This document shows positions 886 to 64,000 of a stretch of 64,000 nt of DNA, in pieces. Position 1 is the stretch's first letter, and each line of letters opens with the position of its first letter. The position numbers and the translations under genes were made by a program. The stretch comes from Balanoglossus misakiensis (Eukaryota > Animalia > Hemichordata), in contig CM082585.2 in the NCBI GenBank assembly GCA_040954595.2, forward strand, positions 8,441,549-8,505,548, written 5' to 3'. The notes beneath the pieces are model-generated. The model worked only from the letters and a program-made list of their open reading frames with translations. It ran no database searches and was not told the origin of the DNA.

Positions 886-20218
<19,333 letters not shown>

Positions 20219-25374: not shown

Positions 25375-29596
<4,222 letters not shown>

Positions 29597-30551
29597 CTTG
29601 ACGACAATGACTCTAGACTAGTGGACTTGATATCAGATGATGATCGACTCTGCCAAAAACAAAACAAAACATTTAATTTTTTTGTTCACTTTTCCATGTT
29701 TTTTTTAAATGGAAACATATTGGCAAGTGTACATATTGCAGTCCCAGTATAATACTGAGACAACTGCAATGAATTATGCATGCATGGCAATATGGCAGCA
29801 ATCCAAAAGCCAGAGTTGCAGCAGCAGGACCCTGAAAATCATGTGATCCAGGAGTCAAGACCTGACTTCACCCCCAAAGATAACTTCTCATTCCTAGCTG
29901 GGTTCTGGAAAGGTTATCAATATTTTGGATCTACTCGTACGATCAGGTTATCAGCAAAATTTACATGTTATCAGCCTGGGCTCTGATATAACACGTTTGG
30001 TAGCTTGCAAAATACATGTACATGACTATCGCATACCTATTACCTGGGCCCAGCCAGAGCCGTGATATAACGTGTTTCGTAGCTTGGAAAATGCCTGGCT
30101 ATCGCAAACCCATACACACAGATTACACATGTACCTTCGGAGGATCAACCCACAATAATAGGCCTACTTACTTAGGCATAAACCGGCACGCGTCGACTAC
30201 TGCATGTTCTACAGAAATTGTACCTTGAAGCAGTCACATGATCACAGTACAAACAAATAAATACAGGCCGGGTGAGCAGGGACTGAAACATGTGATACAA
30301 GAATGCATACATTTCACAGGGTGTTTTACATACGTGGTGTTAGACTTTGAGTCTAGTACCAAGGGGCGTCCAAATTCCAGGTTTTTACCATGTCCAAATG
30401 GATTCGCCTTTTTCTCTCATTTTACATAATTTTAGCAGCTTCAATTATCAGTATAGACAGGTTTCTAATCAATATACCTAAATGGCAATGCTGGAAGCTA
30501 TAGTAATTGGACATAATTTCTTCAATATGAAGAACGTTAGCAAAAATTTAC

Positions 30552-35141: not shown

Positions 35142-38100
35142 AAAGTTTGAAAGGCTCTTGCAGTTTCGACGACGAGTGTTTCGACGATTGGATGATCAAA
35201 TCAATGAAAAGGTGAGAAATGATGCTTCCCCTTGTAAGGGGCGTTTATTCAGTTCAATTTTTACGGCGGAGGGGAGCAGAAGGGCGGCAAAATCCAGGGG
35301 GGCGTGGTCGAAACAGTGAAGGGGGTGTGTCACATTATTACATAATACATTTTCAGCACGACGGCAGTGTCTATATTCTCTCAAAAAGTCCCATAATCGG
35401 ACACCTGTCGTCGGTGTTGATCATATACAATCACTTCGGCAGTTGCCCAAATCCATATATTATATGTTTGTTTACATTTATGCTGTCTTTCTCGACTCCA
35501 AATGCTTGTAAGCCCCCTCTCTGAGCTCTGTGTCGTCTGCTGTTGTGACAATATGGTGGCTGCAGCCAGCTGCAGTTCAGTAGCTCTAGGTTTTGCTTGT
35601 GTCGCAAACACAAACAAATAGCGCAAATGAACTGCAGCCAGACAGGGTGGCGGCTTGGTTGTCGACATTATGTACTTGTAGTGTGTTGTGTTTATTGCCT
35701 TTCTTTCCCGGGTTGACCGAGAGTCAACCCAAATGTATGTATAGCTATGGTAACGCAGCTGTACCGTGGTGTGTGTGTATGTGTGTGTGTGTGGGGGGGG
35801 GGGGGCTGATTACACCCCCACACGGTATAGCACAGTAAAGCTGCGTTACCACAGCTACTAACTGTACATACAGTATTTATTAGGATATTCACTAACAAAC
35901 AGGTGTAGATTTCAAACTTCCAGAATAATATCATGACGAACTAAATGTGTCATTTTCAGACACAGATGGGGACTCATATTGACACAGATATCTTCCCAAG
36001 ATGTTTACAAGTGTAAACTCTTGTAATAAAACACCTCTGTACAAAACATTCAATTTTCAACATCAGGTTTCTTAAAATTTACTTTTATTTTATTTTTCAG
36101 AAAATAACAAAAAATTAAGTACTGTACTCTACAGTATCATTACTCTACAATTTAAGTATTTCTAAGTACAGCATCATTACTCTACAGTTCAAATATTTCT
36201 TGAAGTCAGTGATCAATTCAATCCAATAATAACTTGATTCACTGATGTTACAAACAAAACAAAACAAAATATGACATTTTCATAAAGTGTGTTCAGGGTC
36301 CGTTGGAAATTCAACGATACAGTGTCAGGTCTAGTTGTCACCTTCTTCCATATCAGACATCTTCAATTCTCCGTCATGTACATGCAGGGTGAAGTGCACC
36401 TTGCCTTCGAGGCTGCCTTTCTTCAGATTAATGTTAGCGGCCCATGCTTTGCAGACGATCTTGACGGGCACGTTCTGACTGAGCGTTGGGAACTGCAGCG
36501 CCACCAGTGGTGTCTGGAAAGGGATGTTGGCCTCCTCTTCATCGTCGATGTAAGGGAAATATTCCGCTCCGAGGCCGTGTGCCGGATGGTAGCGAACCTT
36601 TCCCATGTCGATTTCTTCCTCATTTGTCTGTTGGAGAAAAAAATCCAAGTTCATAAAATTTGCCGGTTGAAAAGGTTGATTGAAAGCTTCTAAATGTTCT
36701 TGGTGTCATTTGAAATGTAAACAAGTTTAGGTTTTTACCATTTCTGTCAATTAAGCTACTAGTATTATTAATCAATTTTGCAATAGTTCACTTTGCAATA
36801 ATTAATTTTGCAATATAGTGTTATAATTCAACTTTGCAATAATTCAGCTGTGCAGTAACTTAAGTTTGCTATAATTCAACAGGCAGCAATATTATAACTC
36901 ACTAAAATGCAATAATTCAACCTTGAAATGATTCAACTTTGCAATCTTTGAAGTTAACTTACCTTGGCATGGCAGGTGATTGTAACGTAGTTTGGATCAT
37001 AGATATCCTTGATTTCTTCTGGAACTTCCTCCGGTGCAAAGGGCTGTGGCTTCCAGCCGTCAACCTACAGTGTTGGAGCAACAATGTTTGTTTCACACGG
37101 ATTACTAGGAATTTCTCTGAGTCAGCCCTATACCTTTGCAAGAAGTGTGGATAATTTTCTTGAGTCACTAGTGAGTTTGTCATACTCTTACCTTCTCCAA
37201 TGAGATGTAAAGGCAGGGTTTGCCCTCCTGGTAGCCGTAGCCAGGTGTTGAGCAGTGTTCACCTAAGTTGCTGATTGGATAATGGCAGAGGCGTCCTTCT
37301 TCCTCATCTGGGCATACACCAGGTGGACAGGTGTCGTATGGGGAGATTTCATTGTCATCCATGTACACTAAAGTAAAAAATATGAGATGCAGATTTCTAA
37401 AATGAAAACTTACAAAATTGCGCCAAAGCAGTTCATCTCTTTTAATTTTCGTGTTTTCGTTTGTATCTGCATATTTTACACTGGCTTGTGACTCTGAAAT
37501 GCTTGTTATAGAGAATCGCATGTACATTTCACAGAATTTTCTGTGGTACGTTGTTTTCATATTGCACAATGTGACTTGGAAAAGCTACACGTTGACAGAC
37601 GTATGGAGGAGTTGGCATATGTAGGCCAGGCATGCATAGCAATCTTCATGGTAATTTATAACTTGTTTGCCATTCTCTCTGGTGCAGGGTAGTAGATCTA
37701 GGCTAATTGACTTCATTGGGATTCAGAGCTGCTCTGCGCAGCTGCAGAGAAAAAAACCATGCCACCTCGAGAAAAGTTTGTTGACATCGTCAAGGGAAGG
37801 AAATCAATATAGATCTAGGTCGACTAGGCAATAAGAATGGGCATTTTTGAATAGCGGCAAATCACGCTCACATGACAGAATGCTTATTTTTAGCACCAGA
37901 TGTAAATACTCACTGTTCAGGAGGTTGTCGATGTGGTGTGTGTATCCACTGTGGCTCTCCTCGTTTTGGGGATTGAAATGGATTAATCCAAGAGCATTCG
38001 GACTGGGGTGCACTGTCAAACCTGGAATGTGATTGAAAATGCAAAGCACATAAATACACTCTGTTTTAATATTACATTCTAAAATCAAACAGCGGGCTTA

Positions 38101-41100
38101 TGTGCTTTGTGGTTATACTTTTTTTTTGCCTGACTGTATGTTATCCACTGTGAAAGACTTGTATCATTGTTGTAGATCCAGTTCTATTGACCATTGTGTT
38201 GGAAGGATGTTGAACCCTTGAACAATGGAAAAATAGCTTTGTTGCCTCATTCAAATGTTGGCAGAGATTCATGTCAGTTTTCACCAATGCTCAGTACTTT
38301 CTTACACACGCAGTCTGCACTTACCAATGGTTTGTTTTGGTTCTTCCACGAAAGTGAAATTGAGATGTGATTTCAGTTGTTCGATTTCCTCTCGCCCTCT
38401 CTTGATCTTCTTCGCCTGCCACTTGTGCTTCCTGTTCAACTTCTTGATGTGTTGCCCGCTCTCCTCGCGGTCCCTTCTGATCTGCCGCCAGAAGCGCCCG
38501 CCGCGCATTTCGAATCGGTTCTCGATGTCCTCCAGCCGCTCCAGAACCTGCGAATTGGTCTCGAGAAGTAGCTGGATGCGATCTTCGAGCGCCGACTGCG
38601 TGTCGGTCATCCCTTGCATGCCGGTCACTGCCTCGCTGATCTCCGGGCACGAACTCTCCCCTTTGGGGAAGAGGAAAGTGTACGCGCACTCATTTCGGAC
38701 GGTGCAGTAGTCGCGGAATTCTTCGCACACCTGGTCTTGGTACGGGTCATCCGGCTTCTGTGACTCTGGCTTCTGGGCGAAATTCCCACCGCTCGCCAGC
38801 ACCCCGACGAATGCAAAGGGCAGAAGGCACACGACTGCAACTCTCATGGTGACCGTTCTTCAGAACTCTGACTGATCCCAACACAACATGTGCCTTTTTA
38901 TCACAGCTTACATCCCTATTACGTAACTTGCATGTAAAAAAGTTCAAAAAAAATATCATCTGCATACAATGTAGACTGATTACCAATCAGATTCAGAGGA
39001 AAAACAATGCAAATCCATGGCAACCAATAAGAGCACACCTTAAAGAAAATGCCACCCATCTTCAATTGCATCAGTCGCTGTAAAGTTTTTTGTCAACATC
39101 CTAAATGAAGAACCATTTATAAAAGAATTAATTATCACCGCATAATTCCAATTACTCCCCCTTTGAACATTTAATCACACTTTAAGACCTGTTATAACAT
39201 GATCAACAGGAAACAGGCTCCTGTTTGTGAAATCATAGACAATAGAATGATGAAATGCCCTTTACACAAACCTAAAATGGTCCATCTGCCCTGAGCAAAA
39301 TTAAATTGGGGGGTCTGAGTGAAAGTCTCCCCTCTACTTTCTACCCTACAGATTTGTTTTAAACGTGACATATCCAGTAGACAATGCGTTGTAAAGAACA
39401 AGTGAGTGATGGGTTCAATGTTGAGTGGATTTTCCTCATAGCCAGAAAAGTCACTCTAAATTTCACAGCTATTGTTCAGCTACATAAAAGCCCAAAAACA
39501 ACACCACCAGATGTCAACTCTGTCCATTTTCCCCTGTCAAATAAATCTTTGAAAATGGTTCAGGGCTTATTCAAATTGTGCCACTTATAAGATTAAACAA
39601 GGGGATGCTAATGCAGTTTGGTAATGACCTCTCATTGTCTGAGGTAACAAAGTGAAGGACGCAGTTGCCTTCATGAAAGGAACAAAGCTTTCCTGTGAGC
39701 TTATTTTCGTTTCTTGGAACAAGTTCTAGGTGTTTGTTCTGTACACAGAAACAAGCCAAGTCACAAGAACTAGTATGTTTTTCATTCAAGTTTATTAATA
39801 ATACACACAAGATATAGCAATATAGAAATTCAAATATTAGCAATATTAGTGCATGGAAAGCATGTGGCCAACTGACTGACTTGCAGTACATTTGGTTATT
39901 GTGCATGCAATTGAACAACTAAGAAAATATTCCCCTTTGTGGACTGAGAGCTGAGTAGTGGCTCCTGCTAGAATAATTTCTTATGAGAGACATGGAAAGA
40001 ATAAACATAATTTTCAAACTTCTTACAGATCGATACAAGCCGGCGAAATTCAAGAATGAGACACGATCTTAATGTTTGATCAAGACACATTTTCAGATTA
40101 GCAGACTACTATAGTTTACTTCAACCTATGACACCTTCATCGTGAGTCTTCATTTCTGACCTTGACATTTGACCTTAAGGTTCCTCTCCGTGGCTTGCCA
40201 CCCTCAACGACAGGTTGAAGATGCCCTCGCCGGCGTCGTGGTCGATGTTGCGAGCCCAGGCTTTGCATTCCAATTCCACCAGTGGCACTGTTCCGCTGGC
40301 AAGTCCCGTGAATCGCACTGCGATTACGGGCGATAGGTACGGCGTGTAGTCGACGTTGACGGGCGGGAAGTGCTTGATATCGATGTTGTCCTGGCTGTAG
40401 TACCCGATCGTAACCATTGTGTTTCGAGCTTCAGCTCCCTGGGTGAACATACAAAGTTTTGATGAATATCTTTGACAAACATGTATCTATTTTCTCCATT
40501 CAACACTTGTTGATGTCTCAGGTGTTGAACGGGGTACTATTCAAGACAATCATCTTGAAATACTCGTTGACTGTTAAAATACATTTAAATTAAAGATGTT
40601 CCAGAGAGAACAACTTTCAAGTTTCATGTGAAATGTTTGATACAAAGATAGGAAAATATGACAAAAACATTAAAAAGTCAGTCATGAGGTTGTAGCGAGT
40701 TTGAAACCCCAAAGAATTCGTTAAATTCTTATGATTCAAGCTTGATTTGTGTTGTGGTGATCGAGTTGCAATTGCTCATGGCATTTTAAATACCCCTTTC
40801 GGAAATAATTCTATTGACCACTAGAGGGCGCCTTACCCTAGCTTCGCATGTCACAGGCACTGCGGTTTGATTGTAGAATGCGTCCTGAATTTCTTCTGGT
40901 ACATTGTCAAATGTGTAAAGTTCAGGAATCCAGTTTGGTACCTGAAAAAAAATGATAAGAATTTAGTGGTGTATTTGCATGGGAAAATACTTACTTTCTC
41001 TGGACTTGTGGGTCTGAATACTATTACATCCACACATAGTCTGATAGATTTGAAAGATTTGGCATGAACTGAAACAACGTGTATGTGCTGCTCTTTAATA

Positions 41101-44100
41101 AACATTTTCTGCTGTTAGTGAGATCTCACTGAAGACTATGCTGGCTCAAATTTCGTAGCATACACCCACCAATGTTTGAAACCCCAACCTTCGAGTTGCA
41201 ATATACAGATGCTTTTAAACAACAACTCTAAATAAGTACCTGGCTCAAATGAAAGAAGACACAGGGTTTGCCAACGTGGTATCCATAGCTACCACGTATA
41301 CAGAATTCTGTCAGTTCTTGAAGCGAGAAGTGACATAATCTCGGGCGATTTGATGGGTATCCATCCGGACAGTGCTCATAATACTCTGGATGTTCCTCAG
41401 CATCTTCATAAACTGTCATTGAAAGTTTAGATTTTCAGTTAGGTGTGTTCAATTTGGCTGTTGGTGTGAAATCAAAGGTGCAGGATCACCTATGCAAAAT
41501 TAACCACTGTTACCATGGAAATTGAAACATAGTCAATCACACAGATTTTCAGTGGGTAGCACATATGCGATAACTGGTCATTGAGTGTTGATTGACAACT
41601 AAATAAACAGACTGTACCTTGTAAGAATTCTTCAATCTCACTGACATACTGGGCATAGGAATCTTCATCGTCTATGTTGAATGAAATAAGGTTTGTATTT
41701 GGCACAGCCAACAACTCTGCAATTTTAAAAAAAGAGAATATTTAAATCTGTTCCGTGACCTTGATTCTAAGCACACCAAACAAAATATCCTTACCATGCA
41801 ATTATAATTTTCAGTAAAAACCACAAACGTGGATTTCTACAGAATGATATTACGATTTTTATGAATTTCATATCCTTTTGCAAAGGGTACGGTAGATCAC
41901 CAGACATTGTTGTACACCTCCACACGAAACTAGTCTGTCCCCAGTTTCGGAATACAATGAAGTCTCATTTGCAATTTGTCTTTAATGTAATTTGATGAGC
42001 GGTGTTTAATAACAGGACCGGTGGAATGTCATTGGGTTTCACTCACGTCCACCTCATTTAACTTTTGGTATTTTCTGTTTTTTTTTGTGGCAGCTGACTA
42101 TGGATGTTTCCTGAGTGACAGCATGGCCAAAAATCAGCCCCACCCGGCACCCCCAACCTTACCCACTTGCCCATTTACTTGCACGAATCAAGTGCAGAAA
42201 AAGGATAACAAATAAACACACATGGTACACACCAGTTTCACTTCATATTTTACCACTGAGCTTACTTGAGAAAAGTGGGAGAAAATGCCAAGCCCACAAA
42301 AAGTTTTACTTTGTTTTTTTACCATCTAGTTAACTTATATCAAACAGATGCTTTTACATGTACATGTACTATGGTTACAGTTGCAATCTGTGTGGAACAA
42401 ACCATTGGTGAAGAATGAAAAATACTTTAGTGTAGTATCAGTTGGTGTTAATAAAATCCCGTTAACTCCTTTGTCTTTCTATTCTCAGTTTTAAAAAAAT
42501 ATTGTCTTGAAAATTTAGCTCTTGAGTACATACCGATTCCAGAAGGTGATCTTTCAGCTGTTGAGGTTTCTGGAGAGGTTGGCGAGGTTTCTGTTGTTGG
42601 TTCTGCTGCACAACATTCTTCCAGTTCCTCTTCTAATCTGTTCACCCGACGTGTCAGAAATCGGTGTTTGCTGTAAAGATCGGTGAATTTCCCATCGTAT
42701 GCCGCGTGGGACTCTTCGAGCTGGTTCTGGAGGCCGCGCAGAATCTCTTCGTGTTCGGCCAGCTGGTTCTCCAGGGTCTGCACTTGCTGCCGGAGCGCCG
42801 AGTTCTCGTCTTGCAGCTCCTCGATGTCGTTGTCGCGGCGCTGGTTCTCGCGGACCAGCTCGTCCAGGTCGGTGACGGTCTCGCGGAGCTCCCGGCACGA
42901 CTCGTCGCCGGTGACCAGGAAGGTGTAAGCGCAGGTGTCCTCGTTCTGGCAGTAGCTGGCCAGGTCGTCGCAGCCCTGATCCTCGCGGGATCTGGAGCGG
43001 GTGTCCTCTCGGGATCTGGAGCGGGTGTCTTCCCGCGATCTTGACTTTGGTTTCTTCCTGGCCAGGGCCCCGTTGTCGAGGGCTATGACGAAGACAATCA
43101 TCAGGAGAAGAAAGAACTTTGCCATCGTTAAGATGTGACAGTGCCCGACACCCTGTGCTTTCTCGTGCTCTTCGCACCTAGTGTTCCGTCTGTGAGTGCT
43201 CTAACACGCAGTGAACACTTGTTGAAGTTACTGTCGCTCTTATTCCCGGATTTTCCCAGGGTCCCGTTCTAATGAGGGAATATTGTTTCCTTTCCAGTAC
43301 TGTACAACCAATCAATCTTGAGCTTTGCATGCCAGTCAGATGATACAGAGTACACCCATGCATATACCGGTACACTGAAGCTGACCAAATCATCTCCGCA
43401 AATTGGCTTTTTAATCTCATTTCCAGCACCATCATTTAGGCCCACAGCAGTGATTAAAACCATCCAGGGGGGTTGGGAGACAATAACACATAGATTACTT
43501 TCCTGTCAAGTGTGTTGAGGTAAACCAGTCATCCAGTAAATTGAAGTTGACATTTAGTGTTTGTTTCTTACCATATTTCTCTCTCTCTCTCTCTTTCTTT
43601 CTGTCTTTCTTTCCCTCATAGATTTAAATTTTTGGTCTCTGTGACATCCAAATGTAAATATTTGTGACATACACATGTACATCATGTGTTTTACATCACA
43701 GTGATCTTGAACCTATCAACCTAAATCTCCAAGGTCACTGTGACATTTTCAGCTAACCTCCAATGTCACCCAGATAAGCACTTCCTGTGTTTGTTTCTGT
43801 ACAGTTCACTGTTCTAATGAAAACAGCACGCATGAGCATTGACGAAATACATCACCAGTTTCAAGATTTATTTTGACCGTTTTCAGTTTGTTGGCAACTT
43901 TAATGCATACCGCAGTGGACTTTCTAAGTCATACGAGCAATTGCTAAGTAACAACTTGACTTCAATCAGTATGCCACTTTCGTTTAGCTATTAAATGATC
44001 AGACATGTTGCAGACTCTTCCAGCACTGATAACGTCTCCCCTTGTTGTCATCTTTTTGGGGTAATAATATTAATGACATTTCTTTGTCTTTACTTTGACT

Positions 44101-46961
44101 CTGCAGTTACAAGAATCTGCATATGTACGAACTTCAACAAGCGACGAGAGTGATTGAATGGATCTCTAATGATGGTAAGAGATTAAATAAATTCTCATCA
44201 ACACATCTTACGTAGTCTAGTATCTAGCTGTGTTTTGTCCGATTTGCCCCAAGGTGACTAACACCACAGTTGACAAAATATGGCTAGATACTAGACTACA
44301 TCTTTTGATAAAGTGAATGTGCGTCACTACACTCATGCAAACAACTGAATCTTTCATCAGGATTCATTGCGGTGTACTTTGAAACCGTTTTTTCTGACGT
44401 GCGTTGCATATATGGTCAGTGTCAGGCCGGCTACTTATGAGATTACATATAACGTCATTCCAGCGGTGTGTGTTGCCGGGTGCACGGAGGGAAGCAGGAA
44501 TGAAATCCTGGAGTTGAAAATTCCGGACAAACTGCTGGAGAACTCGGAAAGCGACGGACTCAACAAGGAGCGGGATTTCAAACTGAAAAGCGGCGGATTT
44601 TCCGACCGGCCAATCCACTGCCTGAAACACATTCCAAGTTCGAGGTCAGTGAATAATTACATTGCAGTTGCCACAGGCAGGTTGCCAATGGATAAAGTTC
44701 ATGAATTGTCCGATCAGTACTAAAAGATTACATGTAATATAATTTACACCAGAAGAGGAATTGAATATCTATTTCTCCATTCGTCTCAATCAATGTGTGA
44801 TAACATATGGATTCACCAAACAGGATTATTTAACTTATTTACTCGGCAGTCTCTGCCAACGCATCAATTCATGACATGATATTAACTACATGATATAAAT
44901 ATTTATATTTTGTGCAGATTAGTGATTACATCAGGACCACCTGACAACTCGGCCCAAGTTTGGACTCTAGGCAGCGACGACAGCGATGTCATCTGTGTTA
45001 CCAAGGCGATAAATCCAGAGAAACATTCATCATACCACAGTCACCTGGACACCCATAGTGATCTGACCGATAGCTTCCTGATGGGGTCTGTCTGTCAAGA
45101 CATTCAACTTGTTGATGTCCGTACTGGCCAGCCAAAGTTCCACTCAAGTAAGTGACCAGTAGACTTGTCTGCCAATGACCAATTTTTCATTGTTTGCGGT
45201 CAAGTATGTGTTTTATTTTACCTGTACTTGCATAATACACTGCAAAATCATGGACAATGTTTTTTTTTTATTCATCAGATATTGATTCTAGAGAAAGGAT
45301 CTGTGGAGTGAGACTTCTCGATTCAAACACTTGTATTGCATGCTCAAGTGAATCTGGTGAACTTTGTGTTATTGACATGAGACTCGGCTCAAGTAGCCAA
45401 TCGCAACAAAGTCACCGGTCACATGACAGGGATAAGAACCTATCAGATGTCAAGGATGATCAGTCTAATCGACAGACATGCGGCAGTGACAGCCAATCAC
45501 AGTGCAGGACACAAAAAACTCACGACAAGGAGTTCTCTGACCAATCAAAGAAACGGATGGATCGCGGCATGAACGAACAGAAATGTTGGAGTTTTGATGT
45601 GTGTGATGGAAGGACCAAGGAGACAACAGACTGCGGCGCTGCCAAGAAGATGAAACTAGATTGGACTGACACGCAGATATTCAGACTGACTGCCGACAAA
45701 AGAATTCTGGTGAACGACCTCAGAAACATCAAAGACCCGCTCGCAACCTTGACTCTACAGATTCCAAACTGTTCAGCCGGTGTGCATATAAAGGTAGATT
45801 TTAACTTTCACTTTTCAGATTCAATAACACTGTTCGAGGACACCCCCCGGATAAACATTGACAAATCTGTCTGTTGCATAAAATACAAGAAATAATTTGT
45901 CCAATTATGTGAATCTCATAATACAGCTAATTTCCTGCCGTCATATTACATCTATAGAGTGCTCAAAAATAAAATTGTTAAAACGGTGATTAGGATAAAT
46001 TTTCAGTGCATATGTGATGTTCCATCGACATGGTAAACTTTTGCAATTATTGTACTAGCTATAAATATTCACCACTAGTCTGCCACTATTAGAAGTGCTC
46101 ACTAATATATCATTGCAATTACCCCTGATCATTTACAAACCAGTTTCAACATTTCCACCCCACCAATTCGGGTTAGAGTTAAGTAAACTGTCCTAGAACC
46201 CTTAGAAAACCCTCATGATATATTGTAAGTTTTGTGTAGAAAAGTGTTTTTTTGTGTGTGTAGCAAATCACCTATTGTGTCCGAAATTCAGTTCAAGTGA
46301 ATGTTTTTTTTCTCCAGAGTTGTACGTCGGATCTCAACTATTTGTCAGTTTCAGGTGAGTGATCAAGAATAGAGATGTCTCCAGTATTGTGTTAATATAA
46401 TGTTTAGAATAAATCTCAGCAAAATATCAGCTTTCTGTAAGTTCATTGTACTCATCCTAAATCCTTTCAGATAGTATGGATTTTGCATAATGAGATTTCA
46501 GTAACCCCACTTGCTATTAAACTGTACATTAAGCTGCTCTTCTCTGTGTGAATTGCTTGTTAAGTTTGTCTGTCTTTTGTTCTCTGTTTAAATGTTTCCT
46601 AGCAAATAAATTCATTGTTAGGTAAATACAACAGTTAAATAGGATTTTAAATATCTTCTTCAAGCACCCTGCCTTTAAAATCCAACTAACTCTCCCACTG
46701 AAATTATAAATGTTATTTTTCTTTCTATCTACAGGATTTGACAACAGAGTTTACATCTATGACATCCAGAATTTCCAGCAAGGAGCCACTGGTGAGACCA
46801 GTGATTTGGAGCCCATATTTGTGCATGGGGGTCACATGACCAGCGGGTCAACCAATCAGGAGGTGGTAGTTCTGGAACACACGTGGCATCCATGGAAACC
46901 GCACCTGATGATGTCGGCGGCCAGTGATGGTTCGCTCCATGCGTGGGAGTGGCTGGTCTGA
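35135..46961 (+). CDS. WDR73: WD repeat-containing protein 73 (Integrator assembly factor)
   Basis: Exons 35135-35211, 44107-44174, 44464-44644, 44918-45147, 45279-45793, 46318-46354, 46735-46961; phases compatible, ~444 aa. DDWMIKSMKSYKNLHMYELQQATRVIEW, NEILELKIP...ERDFKLKSGGFSDRPI..LKHIP, QVWTLGSDDSDVI and the C-terminal FVHGGH...HTWHPWKP..MSAASDGSLHAWEW match WDR73 as I recall it. Confidence 0.9.
35710..35857. mobile_element. Hairpin plus inverted repeat flanking a (GT)n tract; possible non-autonomous Helentron-associated (HINE-like) fragment
   Basis: 8-bp stem gggttgac-cgaga-gtcaaccc (35710-35730); 19-bp inverted repeat tagctatggtaacgcagct / agctgcgttaccacagcta around a GT and G-run spacer. 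Confidence 0.4.
36331..38847 (-). CDS. Secreted coiled-coil protein with Na+/K+-ATPase beta-subunit-like ectodomain (paralog B)
   Basis: Exons 38847-38325, 38021-37914, 37367-37192, 37064-36963, 36627-36331; GT-AG, in frame, ~401 aa. Signal peptide MRVAVVCLLPFAFVGVLA, C..YC....CAYTFLFP....C, heptad coiled coil, then GLTVHP...LIHF, GYQEGKPC, GWKP, EYFPY, PLVALQF, VCKAWAANI, GKVHFTL (X,K-ATPase beta ectodomain motifs). Confidence 0.85.
36770..36950. repeat. Degenerate ~16-bp minisatellite (tttgcaataattcaac-like)
   Basis: Repeated tgcaataattca cores in the last intron of paralog B. Confidence 0.6.
40175..43125 (-). CDS. Secreted coiled-coil protein with Na+/K+-ATPase beta-subunit-like ectodomain (paralog A)
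   Basis: Exons 43125-42534, 41716-41618, 41412-41240, 40941-40837, 40438-40175; in frame, ~410 aa. Signal peptide MAKFFLLLMIVFVIALDNGALA, CAYTFLV, long coiled coil, S/T/P linker, then LISF...SYAQYVSEIEEFL, YGYHVGKPCVF, NWIP, YLSPVIAVRF, ECKAWARNIDHD. Confidence 0.87.
40818..40832 (+). promoter_or_regulatory. CTCF-like binding motif
   Basis: CCACTAGAGGGCGCC matches the core CTCF consensus; binding is not demonstrated. Confidence 0.45.
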
Positions 46962-47829: not shown

Positions 47830-48777
47830 TTACTTTGTTTTTGTTTCAGGCTTCTCAACTTTCAACCAGTTACTGTTCCATATGTCCCTCAACCGAGCTC
47901 TCTCGTCGTTGTTGACCGTTAGCATTGACCTTATGAGGTCACGGCATTCTTTTGAGAGGCGATTTAACGGCCTCGGCCACCTTGGGGTTCTGTTCATCGC
48001 ACTGCGCATAGCTTCCACGCCCTCGCTTGTACTGAACGGCTGCGACCCGGTGACCATGAAGAAGAGAACCACGCCTAGCGACCAAATGTCCGCCACTCTT
48101 GGATCGTGCGGCCGCGCGTCGAAAATCTCAGGAGCCGCGTAGCCGAACGTGCCGCTGCGACTGGTGTGCAGTTTCGATCCCGATTTCGCTATTTCCACCG
48201 ACATTCCAAAATCGGCCAGTTTTACACCTCCGTGCCGACAGAGCAGAATATTCGAACCAGATATGTCGCCGTGTGCTATTTTGGCCCGGTTGTGACAATA
48301 CGACACGGCCAGTAAAATTTGCCGGAACAGTTTCTTGGCCTCCGATTCCTGAAGCCCCCTCTTCCGTCGAATGTACGCCTCTAAGCTCCCTCCCTCGGCG
48401 AGGTCCAGAATCGTGTAAAATTTATCATCGTGCTGGAAGTAGTCATAAAGATCGATCACATTCTCGTGGCTTAGACGCTGTAAAAGTCTGATCTCCCTCC
48501 GGACGTACTTGTCGACGAAATCGATCGGGGCGAGCAGTTCGTCCGTGATCTTCACCGCCACGTCGCAGCAGAATTTCACCGAGTAGGCCCTTTCAACTCG
48601 CGAATAGGCGCCGGTCCCGAGTTTTTCTCCCGCGAATAGGTATCCCCTGAGGATCGCGTTACTTCTACCGTTGTCGGTCGGCAAATCGGATCTTGGCGGC
48701 GGCATTGATTCGGAGAAGAGTTTGGAGTTTCCGATTCCCGTGGAGGAGACCGTCCCGCCGACCGGTCCGCAGTGCAT
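47830..48777 (-). CDS. TSSK: Intronless testis-specific Ser/Thr kinase (TSSK)-like protein, 315 aa
   Basis: LRGYLFAGEKLGTGAYSRV, VAVKI....AP.DFVDKYVRREI (TSSK-typical), DFG, YAAPE, PHDPRVADIWSLGV; single GC-rich exon. Confidence 0.85.
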   Translation of the reverse strand: MHCGPVGGTVSSTGIGNSKLFSESMPPPRSDLPTDNGRSNAILRGYLFAGEKLGTGAYSRVERAYSVKFCCDVAVKITDELLAPIDFVDKYVRREIRLLQRLSHENVIDLYDYFQHDDKFYTILDLAEGGSLEAYIRRKRGLQESEAKKLFRQILLAVSYCHNRAKIAHGDISGSNILLCRHGGVKLADFGMSVEIAKSGSKLHTSRSGTFGYAAPEIFDARPHDPRVADIWSLGVVLFFMVTGSQPFSTSEGVEAMRSAMNRTPRWPRPLNRLSKECRDLIRSMLTVNNDERARLRDIWNSNWLKVEKPETKTK

Positions 48778-49819
48778 GGCTTTCCCCTATCGATAAACTG
48801 TCTCCTTGGTTACATGGAAATTCGGACACACAGATTCACGATTTGCTGTTCCTGAATGCGTGGAAATGGTGCAAGCCCATAACACCTGTTGCTCGGAACT
48901 GCTCACTCGGGGAGTAATGATTTTTCAATAAAAACGGCGAATCAAAAGGCCTACAAGCGACTCGATGTAAAGGTTTAACCTCGGTAAAAAGGAAACAAAA
49001 AGTTTGAATGTACCGAAAAAAACGGACTAGAAAGGTTCGTCACTTGTCAAACTCGTCTCCAGGCGCAGATTTGTTATCTGTACGTCGGTCTCCTCGCTGT
49101 CTTCCTCAAGAATGCGCCCCATGTGAATTATTTCAGAAAGTTGATTTGACGTCAGCTGGAACTTGCCATTGTCCGAGGGCACAAATAGGCTGGCGTCATC
49201 GTCCGCATTCCAAACGCTATTGAAAGCTGAAGTTAAGGCCGATATGTTCCCCCTTTGGAGCAGATACCTCTCTGGCAGGCTTTTCAACTTCTGCGTCTGA
49301 TCGGCTTACGTACTGCCAAATCTGCTTTTCCAAAACTGACCAGCCGACAACATTAGTGTTCTCGTTAACGCGCACTTATGCCAGCCAGGTCCGTTTTACG
49401 AGCGGCGCGTCGAAAACCCGCCGAGATTTTATGTCCAACACCTCGTGGTAAGACTGTCATTGCACTTGGGGTACAGTTTGTTTGAATCACGAACCTTCTG
49501 TTAAAAAAGGAAAGTGTTCTGAAATTAAATTATGGCTCACGATCACCGTCACCATACGTGACTAGAATACAATGAGTACTAATTCTTTGTAATGGATAAA
49601 AAAGAACCTTTGGGGGTTTCTTAACAAACATTAAGTATATAGGCCTACCAGAGCTGATCTAAACGTTACCAGAGAAACAAAAAAAAAAAACTTAAGTGTT
49701 CGGCATTAAGGCGTCATCAACGCAAATGACTAGCCTACTCAGCCAATGTTTGGAAATTCCAATCAATCGTCGCAGAGACGAACGGTTATGATTTTGGTTG
49801 GCGGCCTAATGGACATTTT

Positions 49820-50493: not shown

Positions 50494-53400
50494 AAAAAAT
50501 CGGTTATAGCTCATGAAAATCATCCCAAAATGACAATTTTTCGACTTTGCGAAATTTCAAAATTTGGTCGATTTTTGAAAAAAACCATGGGTTATAGCTC
50601 AGGAAAATCATCAAAAAATGACAATTTTTCGACTTTGCGGAAAATCAAAATTTGGCCGATTTTTGAAAAAAATCATGGGTTATAGCTCAGGAAATCATCA
50701 AAAAATGACAATTTTTCGACTTTGCGGAAAATCAAAATTTGGCCGATTTTCGAAAAAAATCATGGGTTATAGCTCAGGAAATCATCAAAAAATGACAATT
50801 TTTCGACTTTGCGGAAAATCAAAATTTGGCCGATTTTCGAAAAAAATCATGGGTTATAGCTCAGGAAATCATCAAAAAATGACAATTTTTCGACTTTGCG
50901 GAAAATCAAAATTTGGCCGATTTTCGAAAAAAATCATGGGTTATAGCTCAGGAAATCATCAAAAAATGACAATTTTTCGACTTTGCGGAAAATCAAAATT
51001 TGGCCGATTTTCGAAAAAAATCATGGGTTATAGCTCAGGAAATCATCAAAAAATGACAATTTTTCGACTTTGCGGAAAATCAAAATTTGGCCGATTTTCG
51101 AAAAAAATCATGGGTTATAGCTCAGGAAATCATCAAAAAATGACAATTTTTCGACTTTGCGGAAAATCAAAATTTGGCCGATTTTCGAAAAAAATCATGG
51201 GTTATAGCTCAGGAAATCATCAAAAAATGACAATTTTTCGACTTTGCGGAAAATCAAAATTTGGCCGATTTTCGAAAAAAATCATGGGTTATAGCTCAGG
51301 AAATCATCAAAAAATGACAATTTTTCGACTTTGCGGAAAATCAAAATTTGGCCGATTTTCGAAAAAAATCATGGGTTATAGCTCAGGAAGTCATCAAAAA
51401 ATGACAATTTTTCGACTTTGCGGAAAATCAAAATTTGGCCGATTTTCGAAAAAAATCATGGGTTATAGCTCAGGAAGTCATCAAAAAATGACAATTTTTC
51501 GACTTTGCGGAAAATCAAAATTTGGCCGATTTTCGATAAAAATCATGGGTTATAGCTCAGGAAGTCATCAAAAAATGACAATTTTTCGACTTTGCGGAAA
51601 ATCAAAATTTGGCCGATTTTCGATAAAAATCATGGGTTATAGCTCAGGAAGTCATCAAAAAATGACAATTTTTCGACTTTGCGGAAAATCAAAATTTGGC
51701 CGATTTTCGATAAAAATCATGGGTTATAGCTCAGGAAGTCATCAAAAAATGACAATTTTTCGACTTTGCGGAAAATCAAAATTTGGCCGATTTTCGATAA
51801 AAATCATGGGTTATAGCTCAGGAAGTCATCAAAAAATGACAATTTTACGACTTTGCGGAAAATCAAAATTTGGCCGATTTTCGATAAAAATCATGGGTTA
51901 TAGCTCAGGAAGTCATCAAAAAATGACAATTTTACGACTTTGCGGAAAATCAAAATTTGGCCGATTTTCGATAAAAATCATGGGTTATAGCTCAGGAAAT
52001 CATCAAAAAATGACAATTTTTCGACTTTGCGGAAAATCAAAATTTGGCCGATTTTCGAAAAAAATCATGGGTTATAGCTCAGGAAATCATCAAAAAATGA
52101 CAATTTTTCGACTTTGCGGAAAATCAAAATTTGGCCGATTTTCGAAAAAAATCATGGGTTATAGCTCAGGAAATCATCAAAAAATGACAATTTTTCGACT
52201 TTGCGGAAAATCAAAATTTGGCCGATTTTCGATAAAAATCATGGGTTATAGCTCATGAAATCATCAAAAAATGACAATTTTTCGACTTTGCGGAAAATCA
52301 AAATTTGGCCGATTTTCGATAAAAATCATGGGTTATAGCTCAGGAAATCATCAAAAAATGACATTTTTTCGACTTTGCGGAAAATCAAAATTTGGCCGAT
52401 TTTTGAAAAAAATCATGGGTTATAGCTCAGGAAGTCATCAAAAAATGACATTTTTTCGACTTTGCGGAAAATCAAAATTTGGCCGATTTTCGAAAAAAAT
52501 CATGGGTTATAGCTCAGGAAATCATCAAAAAATGACAATTTTTCGACTTTGCGGAAAATCAAAATTTGGCCGATTTTCGAAAAAAATCATGGGTTATAGC
52601 TCAGGAAGTCATCAAAAAATGACAATTTTTCGACTTTGCGGAAAATCAAAATTTGGCCGATTTTCGATAAAAATCATGGGTTATAGCTCAGGAAGTCATC
52701 AAAAAATGACAATTTTTCGACTTTGCGGAAAATCAAAATTTGGCCGATTTTCGATAAAAATCATGGGTTATAGCTCAGGAAGTCATCAAAAAATGACAAT
52801 TTTACGACTTTGCGGAAAATCAAAATTTGGCCGATTTTCGATAAAAATCATGGGTTATAGCTCAGGAAATCATCAAAAAATGACAATTTTTCGACTTTGC
52901 GGAAAATCAAAATTTGGCCGATTTTCGAAAAAAATCATGGGTTATAGCTCAGGAAATCATCAAAAAATGACAATTTTTCGACTTTGCGGAAAATCAAAAT
53001 TTGGCCGATTTTCGAAAAAAATCATGGGTTATAGCTCAGGAAATCATCAAAAAATGACAATTTTTCGACTTTGCGGAAAATCAAAATTTGGCCGATTTTC
53101 GAAAAAAATCATGGGTTATAGCTCAGGAAATCATCAAAAAATGACAATTTTTCGACTTTGCGGAAAATCAAAATTTGGCCGATTTTCGAAAAAAATCATG
53201 GGTTATAGCTCAGGAAATCATCAAAAAATGACAATTTTTCGACTTTGCGGAAAATCAAAATTTGGCCGATTTTCGATAAAAATCATGGGTTATAGCTCAG
53301 GAAATCATCAAAAAATGACAATTTTTCGACTTTGCGGAAAATCAAAATTTGGCCGATTTTCGATAAAAATCATGGGTTATAGCTCAGGAAATCATCAAAA

Positions 53401-56400
53401 AATGACAATTTTTCGACTTTGCGGAAAATCAAAATTTGGCCGATTTTCGATAAAAATCATGGGTTATAGCTCAGGAAATCATCAAAAAATGACAATTTTT
53501 CGACTTTGCGGAAAATCAAAATTTGGCCGATTTTCGAAAAAAATCATGGGTTATAGCTCAGGAAATCATCAAAAAATGACATTTTTTCGACTTTGCGGAA
53601 AATCAAAATTTGGCCGATTTTTGAAAAAAATCATGGGTTATAGCTCAGGAAGTCATCAAAAAATGACAATTTTTCGACTTTGCGGAAAATCAAAATTTGG
53701 CCGATTTTCGATAAAAATCATGGGTTATAGCTCAGGAAATCATCAAAAAATGACAATTTTTCGACTTTGCGGAAAATCAAAATTTGGCCGATTTTCGAAA
53801 AAAATCATGGGTTATAGCTCAGGAAATCATCAAAAAATGACAATTTTTCGACTTTGCGGAAAATCAAAATTTGGCCGATTTTCGAAAAAAATCATGGGTT
53901 ATAGCTCAGGAAATCATCAAAAAATGACAATTTTTCGACTTTGCGGAAAATCAAGATTTGGCCGATTTTCGAAAAAAATCATGGGTTATAGCTCAGGAAA
54001 TCATCAAAAAATGACAATTTTTCGACTTTGCGGAAAATCAAGATTTGGCCGATTTTCGAAAAAAATCATGGGTTATAGCTCAGGAAATCATCAAAAAATG
54101 ACAATTTTTCGACTTTGCGGAAAATCAAAATTTGGCCGATTTTCGAAAAAAATCATGGGTTATAGCTCAGGAAATCATCAAAAAATGACAATTTTTCGAC
54201 TTTGCGGAAAATCAAAATTTGGCCGATTTTTGAAAAAAATCATGGGTTATAGCTCAGGAAATCATCAAAAAATGACAATTTTTCGACTTTGCGGAAAATC
54301 AAAATTTGGCCGATTTTCGATAAAAATCATGGGTTATAGCTCAGGAAATCATCAAAAAATGACAATTTTTCGACTTTGCGGAAAATCAAAATTTGGCCGA
54401 TTTTCGATAAAAATCATGGGTTATAGCTCAGGAAATCATCAAAAAATGACAATTTTTCGACTTTGCGGAAAATCAAAATTTGGCCGATTTTCGATAAAAA
54501 TCATGGGTTATAGCTCAGGAAATCATCAAAAAATGACAATTTTTCGACTTTGCGGAAAATCAAAATTTGGCCGATTTTCGATAAAAATCATGGGTTATAG
54601 CTCAGGAAATCATCAAAAAATGACAATTTTTCGACTTTGCGGAAAATCAAAATTTGGCCGATTTTCGATAAAAATCATGGGTTATAGCTCAGGAAATCAT
54701 CAAAAAATGACAATTTTTCGACTTTGCGGAAAATCAAAATTTGGCCGATTTTTGAAAAAAATCATGGGTTATAGCTCAGGAAATCATCAAAAAATGACAT
54801 TTTTTCGACTTTGCGGAAAATCAAAATTTGGCCGATTTTTGAAAAAAATCATGGGTTATAGCTCAGGAAGTCATCAAAAAATGACAATTTTTCGACTTTG
54901 CGGAAAATCAAAATTTGGCCGATTTTCGATAAAAATCATGGGTTATAGCTCAGGAAATCATCAAAAAATGACAATTTTTCGACTTTGCGGAAAATCAAAA
55001 TTTGGCCGATTTTCGAAAAAAATCATGGGTTATAGCTCAGGAAATCATCAAAAAATGACAATTTTTCGACTTTGCGGAAAATCAAGATTTGGCCGATTTT
55101 CGAAAAAAATCATGGGTTATAGCTCAGGAAATCATCAAAAAATGACAATTTTTCGACTTTGCGGAAAATCAAGATTTGGCCGATTTTCGAAAAAAATCAT
55201 GGGTTATAGCTCAGGAAATCATCAAAAAATGACAATTTTTCGACTTTGCGGAAAATCAAAATTTGGCCGATTTTCGAAAAAAATCATGGGTTATAGCTCA
55301 GGAAATCATCAAAAAATGACAATTTTTCGACTTTGCGGAAAATCAAAATTTGGCCGATTTTCGAAAAAAATCATGGGTTATAGCTCAGGAAATCATCAAA
55401 AAATGACAATTTTTCGACTTTGCGGAAAATCAAAATTTGGCCGATTTTCGAAAAAAATCATGGGTTATAGCTCAGGAAATCATCAAAAAATGACAATTTT
55501 TCGACTTTGCGGAAAATCAAAATTTGGCCGATTTTCGAAAAAAATCATGGGTTATAGCTCAGGAAATCATCAAAAAATGACAATTTTTCGACTTTGCGGA
55601 AAATCAAAATTTGGCCGATTTTCGAAAAAAATCATGGGTTATAGCTCAGGAAATCATCAAAAAATGACAATTTTTCGACTTTGCGGAAAATCTTAATTTG
55701 GCCGATTTTCGATAAAAATCATGGGTTATAGCTCAGGAAATCATCAAAAAATGACAATTTTTCGACTTTGCGGAAAATCAAAATTTGGCCGATTTTCGAT
55801 AAAAATCATGGGTTATAGCTCAGGAAATCATCAAAAAATGACAATTTTTCGACTTTGCGGAAAATCAAAATTTGGCCGATTTTCGATAAAAATCATGGGT
55901 TATAGCTCATGAAATCGTCAAAAAATGACAATTTTTCGACTTTGCGGAAAATCAAAATTTGGCCGATTTTTGATAAAAATCATGGGTTATAGCTCAGGAA
56001 ATCGTCAAAAAATGACAATTTTTCGACTTTGCGGAAAATCAAAATTTGGCCGATTTTTGAAAAAAATCATGGGTTATAGCTCAGGAAATCATCAAAAAAT
56101 GACAATTTTTCGACTTTGCGGAAAATCAAAATTTGGCCGATTTTTGAAAAAAATCATGGGTTATAGCTCAGGAAATCATCAAAAAATGACAATTTTTCGA
56201 CTTTGCGGAAAATCAAAATTTGGGCCGATTTTTGATAAAAATCATGGGTTATAGCTCAGGAAATCATCAAAAAATGACAATTTTTCGACTTTGCGGAAAA
56301 TCAAAATTTGGCCGATTTTTGAAAAAAATCATGGGTTATAGCTCAGGAAATCATCAAAAAATGACAATTTTTCGACTTTGCGGAAAATCAAAATTTGGCC

Positions 56401-62400: not shown

Positions 62401-64000
62401 TTTTCGATAAAAATCATGGGTTATAGCTCAGGAAATCATCAAAAAATGACAATTTTTCGACTTTGCGGAAAATCAAAATTTGGCCGATTTTCGATAAAAA
62501 TCATGGGTTATAGCTCAGGAAATCATCAAAAAATGACAATTTTTCGACTTTGCGGAAAATCAAAATTTGGCCGATTTTCGATAAAAATCATGGGTTATAG
62601 CTCAGGAAATCATCAAAAAATGACAATTTTTCGACTTTGCGGAAAATCAAAATTTGGCCGATTTTCGATAAAAATCATGGGTTATAGCTCAGGAAATCAT
62701 CAAAAAATGACAATTTTTCGACTTTGCGGAAAATCAAAATTTGTCCGATTTTCGATAAAAATCATGGGTTATAGCTCAGGAAATCATCAAAAAATGACAA
62801 TTTTTCGACTTTGCGGAAAATCAAAATTTGTCCGATCTTCGATAAAAATCATGGGTTATAGCTCAGGAAATCATCAAAAAATGACAATTTTTCGACTTTG
62901 CGGAAAATCAAAATTTGGCCGATTTTCGATAAAAATCATGGGTTATAGCTCAGGAAATCATCAAAAAATGACAATTTTTCGACTTTGCGGAAAATCAAAA
63001 TTTGGCCGATTTTCGATAAAAATCATGGGTTATAGCTCAGGAAATCATCAAAAAATGACAATTTTCGACTTTGCGGAAAATCAAAATTTGGCCGATTTTC
63101 GATAAAAATCATGGGTTATAGCTCAGGAATCATCAAAAAATGACAATTTTTCGACTTTGCGGAAAATCAAAATTTGGCCGATTTTCGATAAAAATCATGG
63201 GTTATAGCTCAGGAAATCATCAAAAAATGACAATTTTTCGACTTTGCGGAAAATCAAAATTTGGCCGATTTTCGATAAAAATCATGGGTTATAGCTCAGG
63301 AAATCATCAAAAAAATGACAATTTTTCGACTTTGCGGAAAATCAAAATTTGGCCGATTTTCGATAAAAATCATGGGTTATAGCTCAGGAAATCATCAAAA
63401 AAATGACAATTTTTCGACTTTGCGGAAAATCAAAATTTGGCCGATTTTCGATAAAAATCATGGGTTATAGCTCAGGAAATCATCAAAAAATGACAATTTT
63501 TCGACTTTGCGGAAAATCAAAATTTGGCCGATTTTCGATAAAAATCATGGGTTATAGCTCAGGAAATCATCAAAAAATGACAATTTTTCGACTTTGCGGA
63601 AAATCAAAATTTGGCCGATTTTCGATAAAAATCATGGGTTATAGCTCAGGAAATCATCAAAAAATGACAATTTTTCGACTTTGCGGAAAATCAAAATTTG
63701 GCCGATTTTTGATAAAAATCATGGGTTATAGCTCAGGAAATCATCAAAAAATGACAATTTTTCGACTTTGCGGAAAATCAAAATTTGGCCGATTTTTGAA
63801 AAAAATCATGGGTTATAGCTCAGGAAATCATCAAAAAATGACAATTTTTCGACTTTGCGGAAAATCAAAATTTGGCCGATTTTCGATAAAAATCATGGGT
63901 TATAGCTCAGGAAATCATCAAAAAATGACAATTTTTCGACTTTGCGGAAAATCAAATTTGGCCGATTTTCGATAAAAATCATGGGTTATAGCTCAGGAAT
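50494..64000. repeat. 87-bp tandem satellite array, ~155 copies, continues past the window end
   Basis: Monomer atgggttatagctcaggaaatcatcaaaaaatgacaatttttcgactttgcggaaaatcaaaatttggccgattttcgataaaaatc, head-to-tail and nearly identical copies. Confidence 0.99.

What the first reader, a model, noticed from the sequence alone, without database searches (positions are those of the whole stretch)
36331..43125. Apparently new protein family: secreted Na+/K+-ATPase beta ectodomain on an angiopoietin-like coiled-coil stalk
Seen: two intact 5-exon genes. Exon 1 encodes a signal peptide, a Cys motif (C-x6-C-x5-CAYTFL-x6-C) and a predicted coiled coil. It splices in phase 1 to four exons encoding a full X,K-ATPase beta ectodomain with the six cysteines expected for its three disulfides (GKPC, xTC and CKAW included). 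No transmembrane segment is evident after the signal peptide, and the intervening introns (303 and 817 nt) show no TM exon. Established: beta subunits are type II membrane proteins whose Ig-like ectodomain binds the alpha subunit and mediates beta-beta adhesion. CAYTF followed by a coiled coil is the N-terminal clustering module of angiopoietins, where it normally precedes a fibrinogen domain. Inference: these are oligomeric soluble ligands, decoys or adhesion/matrix proteins that present several beta ectodomains. I know of no described protein with this architecture.
Basis: partly seen in the sequence, partly recalled or inferred. Interest (0 to 1): 0.88.

Follow-up and report, generated by a model that had tools for sequence, protein, structure and literature searches.

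The report
Sodium-pump subunit turned secreted two-headed ligand
Two neighbouring genes, likely from an acorn worm, carry the outer domain of the sodium pump's beta subunit on a coiled-coil stalk instead of a membrane anchor, so they likely make secreted proteins, predicted to pair into two-headed molecules that would grip cell-surface partners rather than help pump ions.

Summary
Two open 5-exon gene models (410 and 401 aa; all introns GT-AG, phases 1,1,0,0) put a signal-like peptide, a Cys module and a ~95-residue coiled coil before a full X,K-ATPase beta ectodomain. No beta N-terminal/TM exon lies in the 64 kb. The same architecture is in NCBI gene models of two other acorn worms: three in Ptychodera flava, one in Glandiceps talaboti. 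Both segments reported to bind the alpha subunit are degraded; the conserved Asn is kept by 74 of 80 membrane betas and 0 of 6 stalked proteins. A model supports a parallel stalk homodimer (0.38, best control 0.00). Two corrections: the angiopoietin link is a recalled motif that no tool confirmed (myocilin/noelin fit as well), and membrane-less beta ectodomains are not unique: models from four insects and an annelid show separate origins. Secretion, splicing and the binding partner are untested. Verdict: a real new architecture, absent from my literature searches; likely a secreted bivalent adhesion-type ligand.

The parts
42534..43125 (-). Gene A exon 1: signal-like peptide, basic Arg/Ser repeat, Cys module, coiled coil, Cys-Cys cap, Thr/Ser/Pro linker; phase-1 donor
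   Evidence: 57% stalk identity to P. flava P0001
43060..43125 (-). Gene A predicted signal peptide (residues 1-22; 13-residue uncharged core, (-3,-1) site after residue 22)
   Evidence: heuristic only; no SignalP available
42980..43041 (-). 24-nt tandem repeat (2.6 copies) encoding the basic/Ser repeat before the Cys module
42895..42972 (-). Gene A four-Cys module (C52, C59, C65, C77) with CAYTFL
42610..42894 (-). Gene A acidic coiled coil (residues 78-172, net charge -12) ending in Cys-Cys
   Evidence: helix 77-171 and dimer contacts 86-171 in the orthologue's models
41618..41716 (-). Gene A exon 2, start of beta ectodomain
   Evidence: PF00287 E 1.7e-3
41240..41412 (-). Gene A exon 3 (4 Cys, GKPC; Asn of the K-L-N-K/R motif replaced)
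   Evidence: PF00287 E 3.9e-4
40837..40941 (-). Gene A exon 4
   Evidence: no Pfam beta hit alone
40175..40438 (-). Gene A exon 5 with CKAW and stop
   Evidence: PF00287 E 3.3e-9
38325..38847 (-). Gene B exon 1: signal-like peptide, Cys module, coiled coil with basic second half; phase-1 donor
   Evidence: 68% stalk identity to P. flava P0021
38647..38727 (-). Gene B four-Cys module (C41, C48, C54, C67)
38371..38646 (-). Gene B coiled coil (residues 68-159; first half net -8, second half net +11)
37914..38021 (-). Gene B exon 2, start of beta ectodomain
   Evidence: no Pfam hit alone
37192..37367 (-). Gene B exon 3 (5 Cys, one extra and shared with P0021)
   Evidence: PF00287 E 5.8e-4
36963..37064 (-). 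Gene B exon 4
36331..36627 (-). Gene B exon 5 with CKAW, acidic tail and stop
   Evidence: PF00287 E 7e-13

Best explanation
These are two intact paralogous gene models that place a Na+/K+-ATPase beta ectodomain on a Cys-module plus coiled-coil stalk, and they likely encode secreted proteins, predicted to form parallel dimers, that no longer likely serve the pump's alpha subunit and would act as two-headed adhesion-type ligands, most likely binding the beta ectodomains of membrane pumps. Steps: (1) Shown in sequence: a duplicate of a deuterostome-type beta gene has its cytoplasmic tail and TM helix replaced by one large exon ending in a phase-1 intron. (2) Inferred: the N-terminal peptide is cleaved and the protein secreted. 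(3) Predicted: the stalk zips into a parallel dimer, likely locked by Cys at both ends, holding two heads side by side. (4) Inferred: with both alpha-binding segments degraded, the heads are free for trans binding. (5) Inferred, weakest: by avidity they bind beta ectodomains on cells, and cluster pumps or compete with cell-cell beta-beta adhesion, while a basic segment (N-terminal in A, in the coil in B) tethers them to sulfated matrix or mucus. My odds: steps 1-4 together about 0.8; step 5 about 0.5 given those.
For: Open frames, GT-AG introns and equal phases in both genes. The same architecture in 4 proteins from 2 other species of two enteropneust families; the stalk is about as conserved as the head (A vs P0001 57% and 59%; B vs P0021 68% and 77%). 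The head of the P0001 model matches solved beta subunits (Z 24.0, rmsd 2.1 A, 213 residues, 7x21_B), and residues 77-171 form one helix. No TM exon in the window. N-terminal uncharged runs are 12-19 residues against a median of 24 in 80 membrane betas. Stalk dimer of P0001: score 0.38, best of 3 controls 0.00, runs agree in at least 92% of contacts, pLDDT 76, in-register parallel contacts 86-171 including Cys170/171. That mark was reached by 21 of 30 microbial homodimers and 0 of 23 monomers; in eukaryotes by 17 of 29 dimers (animals 7 of 16) and 0 of 30 monomers. Beta residues reported to bind alpha are Tyr69-Tyr83 and Asn182-Ile185 (PMC6770782, passage). The matching Asn is in 74 of 80 membrane betas and in all 8 near relatives checked, but in 0 of 6 stalked proteins; the Pro of the post-TM Pro-Gly is in 78 of 80 versus 1 of 6. 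The TM helix is important for efficient alpha assembly (PMC2290884, abstract). An engineered soluble beta1 ectodomain cuts cell aggregates by about half (PMC6539428, passages), and a secreted beta-binding protein clusters pumps and lowers Na+ clearance (PMC6121408, abstract).
Against: No transcript, protein or binding data for these genes; the orthologues are also gene predictions. No SignalP or DeepTMHMM was run; 5 of 80 membrane betas also have an uncharged run of 17 or fewer, and winB (19) and P0021 (18) are not far below TM length. The dimer pass may reflect likeness to known coiled coils: only 1 of 7 eukaryotic dimers without an older solved relative reached the mark. It used the P. flava orthologue without an alignment, trimers and tetramers were not tried, and the Cys module was not confidently placed. 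The beta-beta interface is mapped only for mammalian beta1 (198-207, 221-229) and differs in beta2, so nothing shows that these heads keep it. A-type heads have also lost further conserved surface residues, which fits a new partner equally well. Mapping Asn182 onto the K-L-N-R motif is my inference from a constant one-residue offset to the bovine chain. Loss of the Asn in the family may be one or two events, not six.
Confidence: 0.42

Rival explanations
1. Secreted dimeric or higher-order structural protein of mucus or extracellular matrix, whose beta-derived Ig-like heads bind a partner unrelated to the pump (a glycan, a matrix protein, or each other: A with B).
For: Same architecture evidence as the best explanation. 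A-type heads lost conserved Pro, Gly and Tyr positions that B keeps. Basic segments and acidic heads; A coils are acidic and B coils basic in the second half in all orthologues, which could favour A-B pairing or polyanion binding. Stalk-plus-head layout as in myocilin (10.1101/154112, passages).
Against: No expression or localisation data. The only partners of beta ectodomains that I read about are pump-associated.
Confidence: 0.36
2. The N-terminal hydrophobic stretch is an uncleaved signal-anchor, giving a type II membrane protein with a long stalk that lifts beta heads off the cell (an adhesion receptor).
For: Betas are type II proteins. winB and P0021 have 18-19-residue uncharged runs. No signal-peptide predictor was run.
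Against: Runs of 12-13 residues in winA, P0002 and P0003; (-3,-1) sites in 6 of 6; almost no cytoplasmic N-terminus; basic residues follow the hydrophobic stretch in A-types.
Confidence: 0.08
3. Soluble modulator or decoy that still docks on the alpha subunit's outer loops, at the surface or in the ER.
For: The fold and six Cys are kept; B-type keeps most surface motifs.
Against: The TM helix is absent and both reported alpha-binding segments are degraded.
Confidence: 0.08
4. Chimeric gene models: exon 1 belongs to a separate short secreted gene, and the beta exons are spliced from elsewhere or are relics.
For: No reads were seen. Unspliced exon 1 would give 225 and 181 aa ORFs, and poly(A)-like hexamers occur in both first introns. 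Exon 1 has high GC3 (0.70 and 0.73).
Against: Strong donors in matching phase in both paralogues; the same join in 4 models from 2 other genomes; no TM exon in the window; 43-77% conservation between orthologous heads with no stops.
Confidence: 0.06

Closest known systems
X,K-ATPase beta subunits (PF00287; ATP1B1-3, ATP4B, insect nervana)
   Same: Full ectodomain, six Cys, same fold. Nearest membrane relative found is Glandiceps XP_077987786 (33-38% identity).
   Different: No cytoplasmic tail or TM helix; alpha-binding segments degraded; signal-like peptide, Cys module and ~95-residue coil added.
Engineered Sec-beta1 (secreted canine beta1 ectodomain)
   Same: A soluble beta ectodomain that is secreted and competes with beta-beta adhesion (PMC6539428, passages).
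   Different: Artificial and without a stalk; the genes here would be a natural, predicted bivalent version.
Myocilin and olfactomedin-1 (noelin)
   Same: [quoted passage not shown] Noelin is a weak Atlas structural neighbour. Motif likeness around the Cys pair is recalled, not from a call.
   Different: Head is a beta ectodomain, not an olfactomedin domain; four N-terminal Cys; tetramer not tested; no significant sequence hit.
Angiopoietins and other coiled-coil plus fibrinogen-domain proteins
   Same: Superclustering region, coil, linker Cys and head; oligomer state governs activity (PMC4609988, passages). The top Atlas structural neighbour of the B stalk is a chordate fibrinogen-C cluster (TM 0.56 over 53 residues, under the bar). 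CAYTF in angiopoietin is recalled.
   Different: No fibrinogen domain; PF25443 is below cut-off and on the coil only.
MONaKA and retinoschisin (secreted binders of beta ectodomains)
   Same: Precedent for extracellular proteins that cluster or relocate pumps through beta (PMC6121408 abstract; PMC5531734 search listing).
   Different: Unrelated folds (recalled); neither is itself a beta ectodomain.
Unstudied TM-less beta-like gene models in insects and Owenia
   Same: Signal-like start plus beta ectodomain; 8 of 9 hand-picked rows also lack the conserved Asn.
   Different: No Cys module or long coil; separate origin (AU test p 2.9e-11).

Membership tests
X,K-ATPase beta subunit (working pump subunit) | PF00287 ectodomain with Ig-like fold | tested here: met
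   Z 24.0, rmsd 2.1 A over 213 residues for the orthologue model
X,K-ATPase beta subunit (working pump subunit) | Six conserved ectodomain cysteines | tested here: met
   6 of 6 family members
X,K-ATPase beta subunit (working pump subunit) | Cytoplasmic N-terminus and single TM helix (type II) | tested here: not met
   no TM-grade segment after residue 25; TM-region HMM negative on the window and on the orthologues
X,K-ATPase beta subunit (working pump subunit) | Alpha-binding segments (Tyr69-Tyr83; Asn182-Ile185) | tested here: not met
   Asn 0 of 6 versus 74 of 80; Pro of Pro-Gly 1 of 6 versus 78 of 80; segments from PMC6770782; residue mapping inferred
X,K-ATPase beta subunit (working pump subunit) | Assembles with alpha and supports pumping | not testable with these tools
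   needs co-expression
Angiopoietin / ANGPTL | C-terminal fibrinogen-like domain | tested here: not met
   the C-terminal domain is PF00287; no fibrinogen-C hit
Angiopoietin / ANGPTL | Homologous N-terminal clustering module and coil | tested here: inconclusive
   PF25443 16.2 bits versus cut-off 28.5; module alone 0 Pfam hits; Atlas neighbour under the bar; the profile search returned only the 4 orthologues
Olfactomedin / myocilin | C-terminal olfactomedin domain | tested here: not met
Olfactomedin / myocilin | [quoted passage not shown] | tested here: inconclusive
   parallel dimer supported by a model; tetramer and disulfides not tested
Secreted protein | Cleaved signal peptide, no anchor | tested here: inconclusive
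   heuristics favour it; no SignalP, DeepTMHMM or experiment

The most novel reading that the evidence does not exclude
Animals have repeatedly released the sodium-pump beta ectodomain from the membrane (separately in enteropneusts, insects and an annelid), shed its alpha-binding site each time, and in acorn worms mounted it on an angiopoietin/myocilin-type clustering stalk. This would be an unrecognised class of natural secreted ligands that cluster Na+/K+-ATPases or tune beta-beta adhesion from outside the cell, possibly as A/B hetero-oligomers.
Probability: 0.3. Interest if true: 0.85.

Novelty: new variant of a known kind. Interest (0 to 1): 0.66.

Why it matters
The beta subunit is treated as an obligate membrane partner of the pump, and its adhesion role has been probed with engineered soluble fragments. 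Natural, conserved genes that keep the ectodomain but drop the anchor and the alpha-binding site indicate an alpha-independent extracellular job. They give ready reagents for asking what the beta ectodomain binds, and comparing them with membrane betas separates alpha-facing from partner-facing residues. Databases name three of the four orthologues 'beta-1-like', which hides the architecture.

Tried and rejected
No whole genome is held for the window, so I could not look for further copies or the membrane beta gene in this species. No RNA holder was listed; this is no evidence on expression, and read laying was not used. Homology of the Cys module to angiopoietin or myocilin could not be shown: Pfam 0 hits on 4 short queries; a PDB sequence search with the stalk profile gave only generic coiled coils, best E 0.009; Atlas by features gave no usable hit; a full-text search for CAYTF/CQYTF/CSYTF listed 8 papers, unrelated by their titles and abstracts. 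The stalk was not fold-searched alone. The B-type fold from a 6-sequence alignment was poor (mean pLDDT 50) and was not searched. The careful 140-row tree did not finish; a 45-row hand-selected careful tree was used, where monophyly of the six stalked proteins has only 91/46 support. A regex count of the K-L-N motif mis-parsed several rows and was replaced by alignment columns. Literature searches for a described secreted beta or this architecture: searches gave 0 papers; some searches listed papers on membrane betas or unrelated topics (listings only, apart from those cited); on interface residues gave 0; two supplements of PMC4729200 had no beta-subunit term. Two papers on the interfaces were not held. 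PMC4742777 and PMC5459889 (passages) added nothing decisive. Earlier scan notes: nothing. Rejected: pseudogene (open frames, conserved orthologues) and a hidden TM exon.
Full report
Observation. The minus strand of 36331-43125 holds two tandem gene models of five exons each. Gene A (43125-40175) gives 410 aa and gene B (38847-36331) 401 aa, without internal stops. All 8 introns are GT-AG and the phases are 1,1,0,0 in both genes. Exons 2-5 encode a Na+/K+-ATPase beta ectodomain: PF00287 hits 5 of 8 such exons singly, and an HMM of 80 membrane betas scores the joined models 148 and 167 bits against at most 4.7 for 400 shuffles. Exon 1 encodes a short hydrophobic N-terminus, a four-Cys module with CAYTFL, and a coil of about 95 residues whose heptad signal beats shuffles in 6 of 6 family members. 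No TM-grade segment follows residue 25. An HMM of the beta N-terminus/TM region, which finds a control at E 4e-28, finds no such exon in the 64 kb. Splicing is inferred, not seen in reads.

Relatives. Exon 1 of gene A retrieved a 394-aa Ptychodera flava protein with the same layout (P0001, XP_070539164). Further searches gave P0002 (XP_070539169), P0021 (XP_070539165) and Glandiceps talaboti P0003 (XP_077987584). Both species are enteropneusts, of two families, so the window is likely from an acorn worm closer to Ptychodera (inference). In the exhaustive search of 1.84 billion representatives, 352 proteins passed E 0.001; the 3 under 1e-30 are the stalked ones, and in the other 147 of the 150 listed the best stretch lay in the ectodomain region. 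A stalk profile returned only these 4 proteins among 7988 candidates scored (weak evidence of absence by the tool's own warning). Gene A pairs with P0001/P0002/P0003 and gene B with P0021 (100/97 and 100/100), so the A/B split predates the split from Ptychodera. The stalk is about as conserved as the head. All four orthologues are gene predictions.

Structure. The AlphaFold2 model of P0001 (mean pLDDT 79.9) has one helix over 77-171, a low-confidence Cys module and linker, and a confident head. The head matches solved beta subunits at Z 24.0, rmsd 2.1 A over 213 residues. Two copies of P0001 residues 47-176 were modelled as an in-register parallel coiled coil over 86-171, including Cys170/171: score 0.38, best of 3 controls 0.00, runs agreeing in at least 92% of contacts, pLDDT 76. 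The mark was reached by 21 of 30 microbial homodimers and 0 of 23 monomers; in eukaryotes by 17 of 29 dimers (animals 7 of 16; only 1 of 7 without an older solved relative) and 0 of 30 monomers. The pass may therefore show likeness to known coiled coils. The core has Ile/Asn/Val at position a and Leu at d (Asn in 4 of 6 members), a pattern I recall as typical of dimers. Trimers, tetramers and A-B pairs were not tested. A coils are acidic throughout, while the second half of B coils is basic (+11, +14).

Loss of the pump role. A paper on beta1 gives Tyr69-Tyr83 and Asn182-Ile185 as the main alpha-binding residues (PMC6770782, passage). I map these onto the post-TM segment and the K-L-N-R motif from a constant one-residue offset to the bovine chain (inference). 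The Asn is kept in 74 of 80 membrane betas and all 8 near relatives checked, but in 0 of 6 stalked proteins. The post-TM segment is replaced by the linker: the Pro of its Pro-Gly is in 78 of 80 versus 1 of 6. [quoted passage not shown] These proteins therefore fail membership as pump subunits while keeping the fold and the six Cys. The 80 membrane rows are those auto-labelled TM among 140 kept of 167 hits; partial rows and 9 listed near-duplicates were dropped.

Origin. Intron 1 falls at the Gly that aligns with the Pro-Gly after the TM helix of membrane betas. From memory, vertebrate beta genes have a phase-1 intron there and introns at the other three positions; I did not test this. The simplest reading is that the tail and TM exons of a duplicated beta gene were replaced by a signal-plus-stalk exon. 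A Pro near the end of exon 1 aligns with the post-TM Pro in 6 of 6, which could mean a fusion inside the old TM exon, but a Pro-rich linker would give this by chance. The donor of the stalk is unidentified. Pfam ANG-1 is below cut-off and on the coil only, and the module alone has no Pfam hit. The Atlas's nearest models include a chordate fibrinogen-C cluster (row 1) and noelin (row 4) among unrelated bacterial rows, all under its naming bar. Myocilin has the same plan: N-terminal Cys47/Cys61, coil, capping Cys185, linker and head, forming a dimer-of-dimers (10.1101/154112, passages; its supplementary alignments were not seen and may bear on this). I treat 'angiopoietin/myocilin-type stalk' as a likeness, not as membership.

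Not alone. Among the same hits are beta ectodomains that follow a signal-like start directly: Ischnura, Tribolium, Culicoides, Bradysia and unnamed records, plus an Owenia model with a collagen segment. Eight of these 9 hand-picked rows also lack the conserved Asn. An AU test rejects one origin for them and the stalked family (p 2.9e-11; 45 hand-selected rows). They are unverified models, and some other TM-less rows are probably fragments that keep the Asn.

Mechanism. Best reading (0.42 for the whole chain; about 0.8 for a secreted, oligomeric, alpha-independent protein): after signal cleavage the stalks dimerise and present two heads, which bind beta ectodomains of membrane pumps by avidity, clustering them or competing with beta-beta adhesion, with a basic segment as a matrix tether. 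Precedents are engineered Sec-beta1, which halves cell aggregates (PMC6539428, passages), and MONaKA, which clusters pumps (PMC6121408, abstract). The main rival (0.36) is a mucus or matrix protein with a new partner. The beta-beta surface is mapped only in mammals and differs between isoforms, so these two readings cannot be separated here. An uncleaved anchor (0.08), an alpha decoy (0.08) and a chimeric model (0.06) are less likely.

Novelty and verdict. Searches of the held library found no description of a natural secreted beta ectodomain or of this architecture; most subscription journals, and the Ptychodera and Glandiceps genome papers with their supplements, were not examined. The parts and the stalk-and-head plan are known; the combination and the loss of the alpha site did not turn up in these searches.

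Noticed in passing
P0034, P0045, P0093, P0146 (Ischnura, Tribolium, Culicoides, Bradysia), P0052, P0076, P0119, P0142: Beta ectodomain directly after a signal-like N-terminus, with no TM; none of these 8 keeps the conserved Asn of the K-L-N-K/R motif; origin separate from the stalked family. Possibly an unrecognised secreted class in insects.
   Followed up: partly
P0043 (Owenia fusiformis CAH1782013): Model with signal-like peptide, short coil, collagen repeat (PF01391), a TSP1-like stretch (by eye) and a beta ectodomain that keeps the Asn; either a second stalked form or a fused gene model.
   Followed up: partly
window 37192-37367 (gene B exon 3) and P0021: A seventh ectodomain Cys conserved in both B-type proteins; it could form an inter-chain bond.
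   Followed up: no
window 38371-38646 versus 42610-42894: Charge contrast between B coils (basic second half) and A coils (acidic), conserved in orthologues; A-B heterodimer or polyanion binding untested.
   Followed up: partly
window 47833-48786 (-): Uninterrupted protein-kinase ORF (PF00069, E 1.2e-59), upstream of gene A on the same strand; looks like a testis-specific Ser/Thr kinase (recalled likeness).
   Followed up: partly
window 50502-63999: 87-bp satellite, 155 copies at 99% match, running to the end of the window and giving long spurious ORFs.
   Followed up: partly
window 44886-46961 (+): Exon-like ORFs with WD40-like text (by eye); no Pfam hit at E 0.001 for the two pieces scanned.
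   Followed up: partly
window 29141-29617 (-) and 11780-12223 (+): ORF pieces that look like a long-chain acyl-CoA ligase exon and a Rab6-like exon (recalled likeness; no Pfam hit at E 0.001).
   Followed up: no
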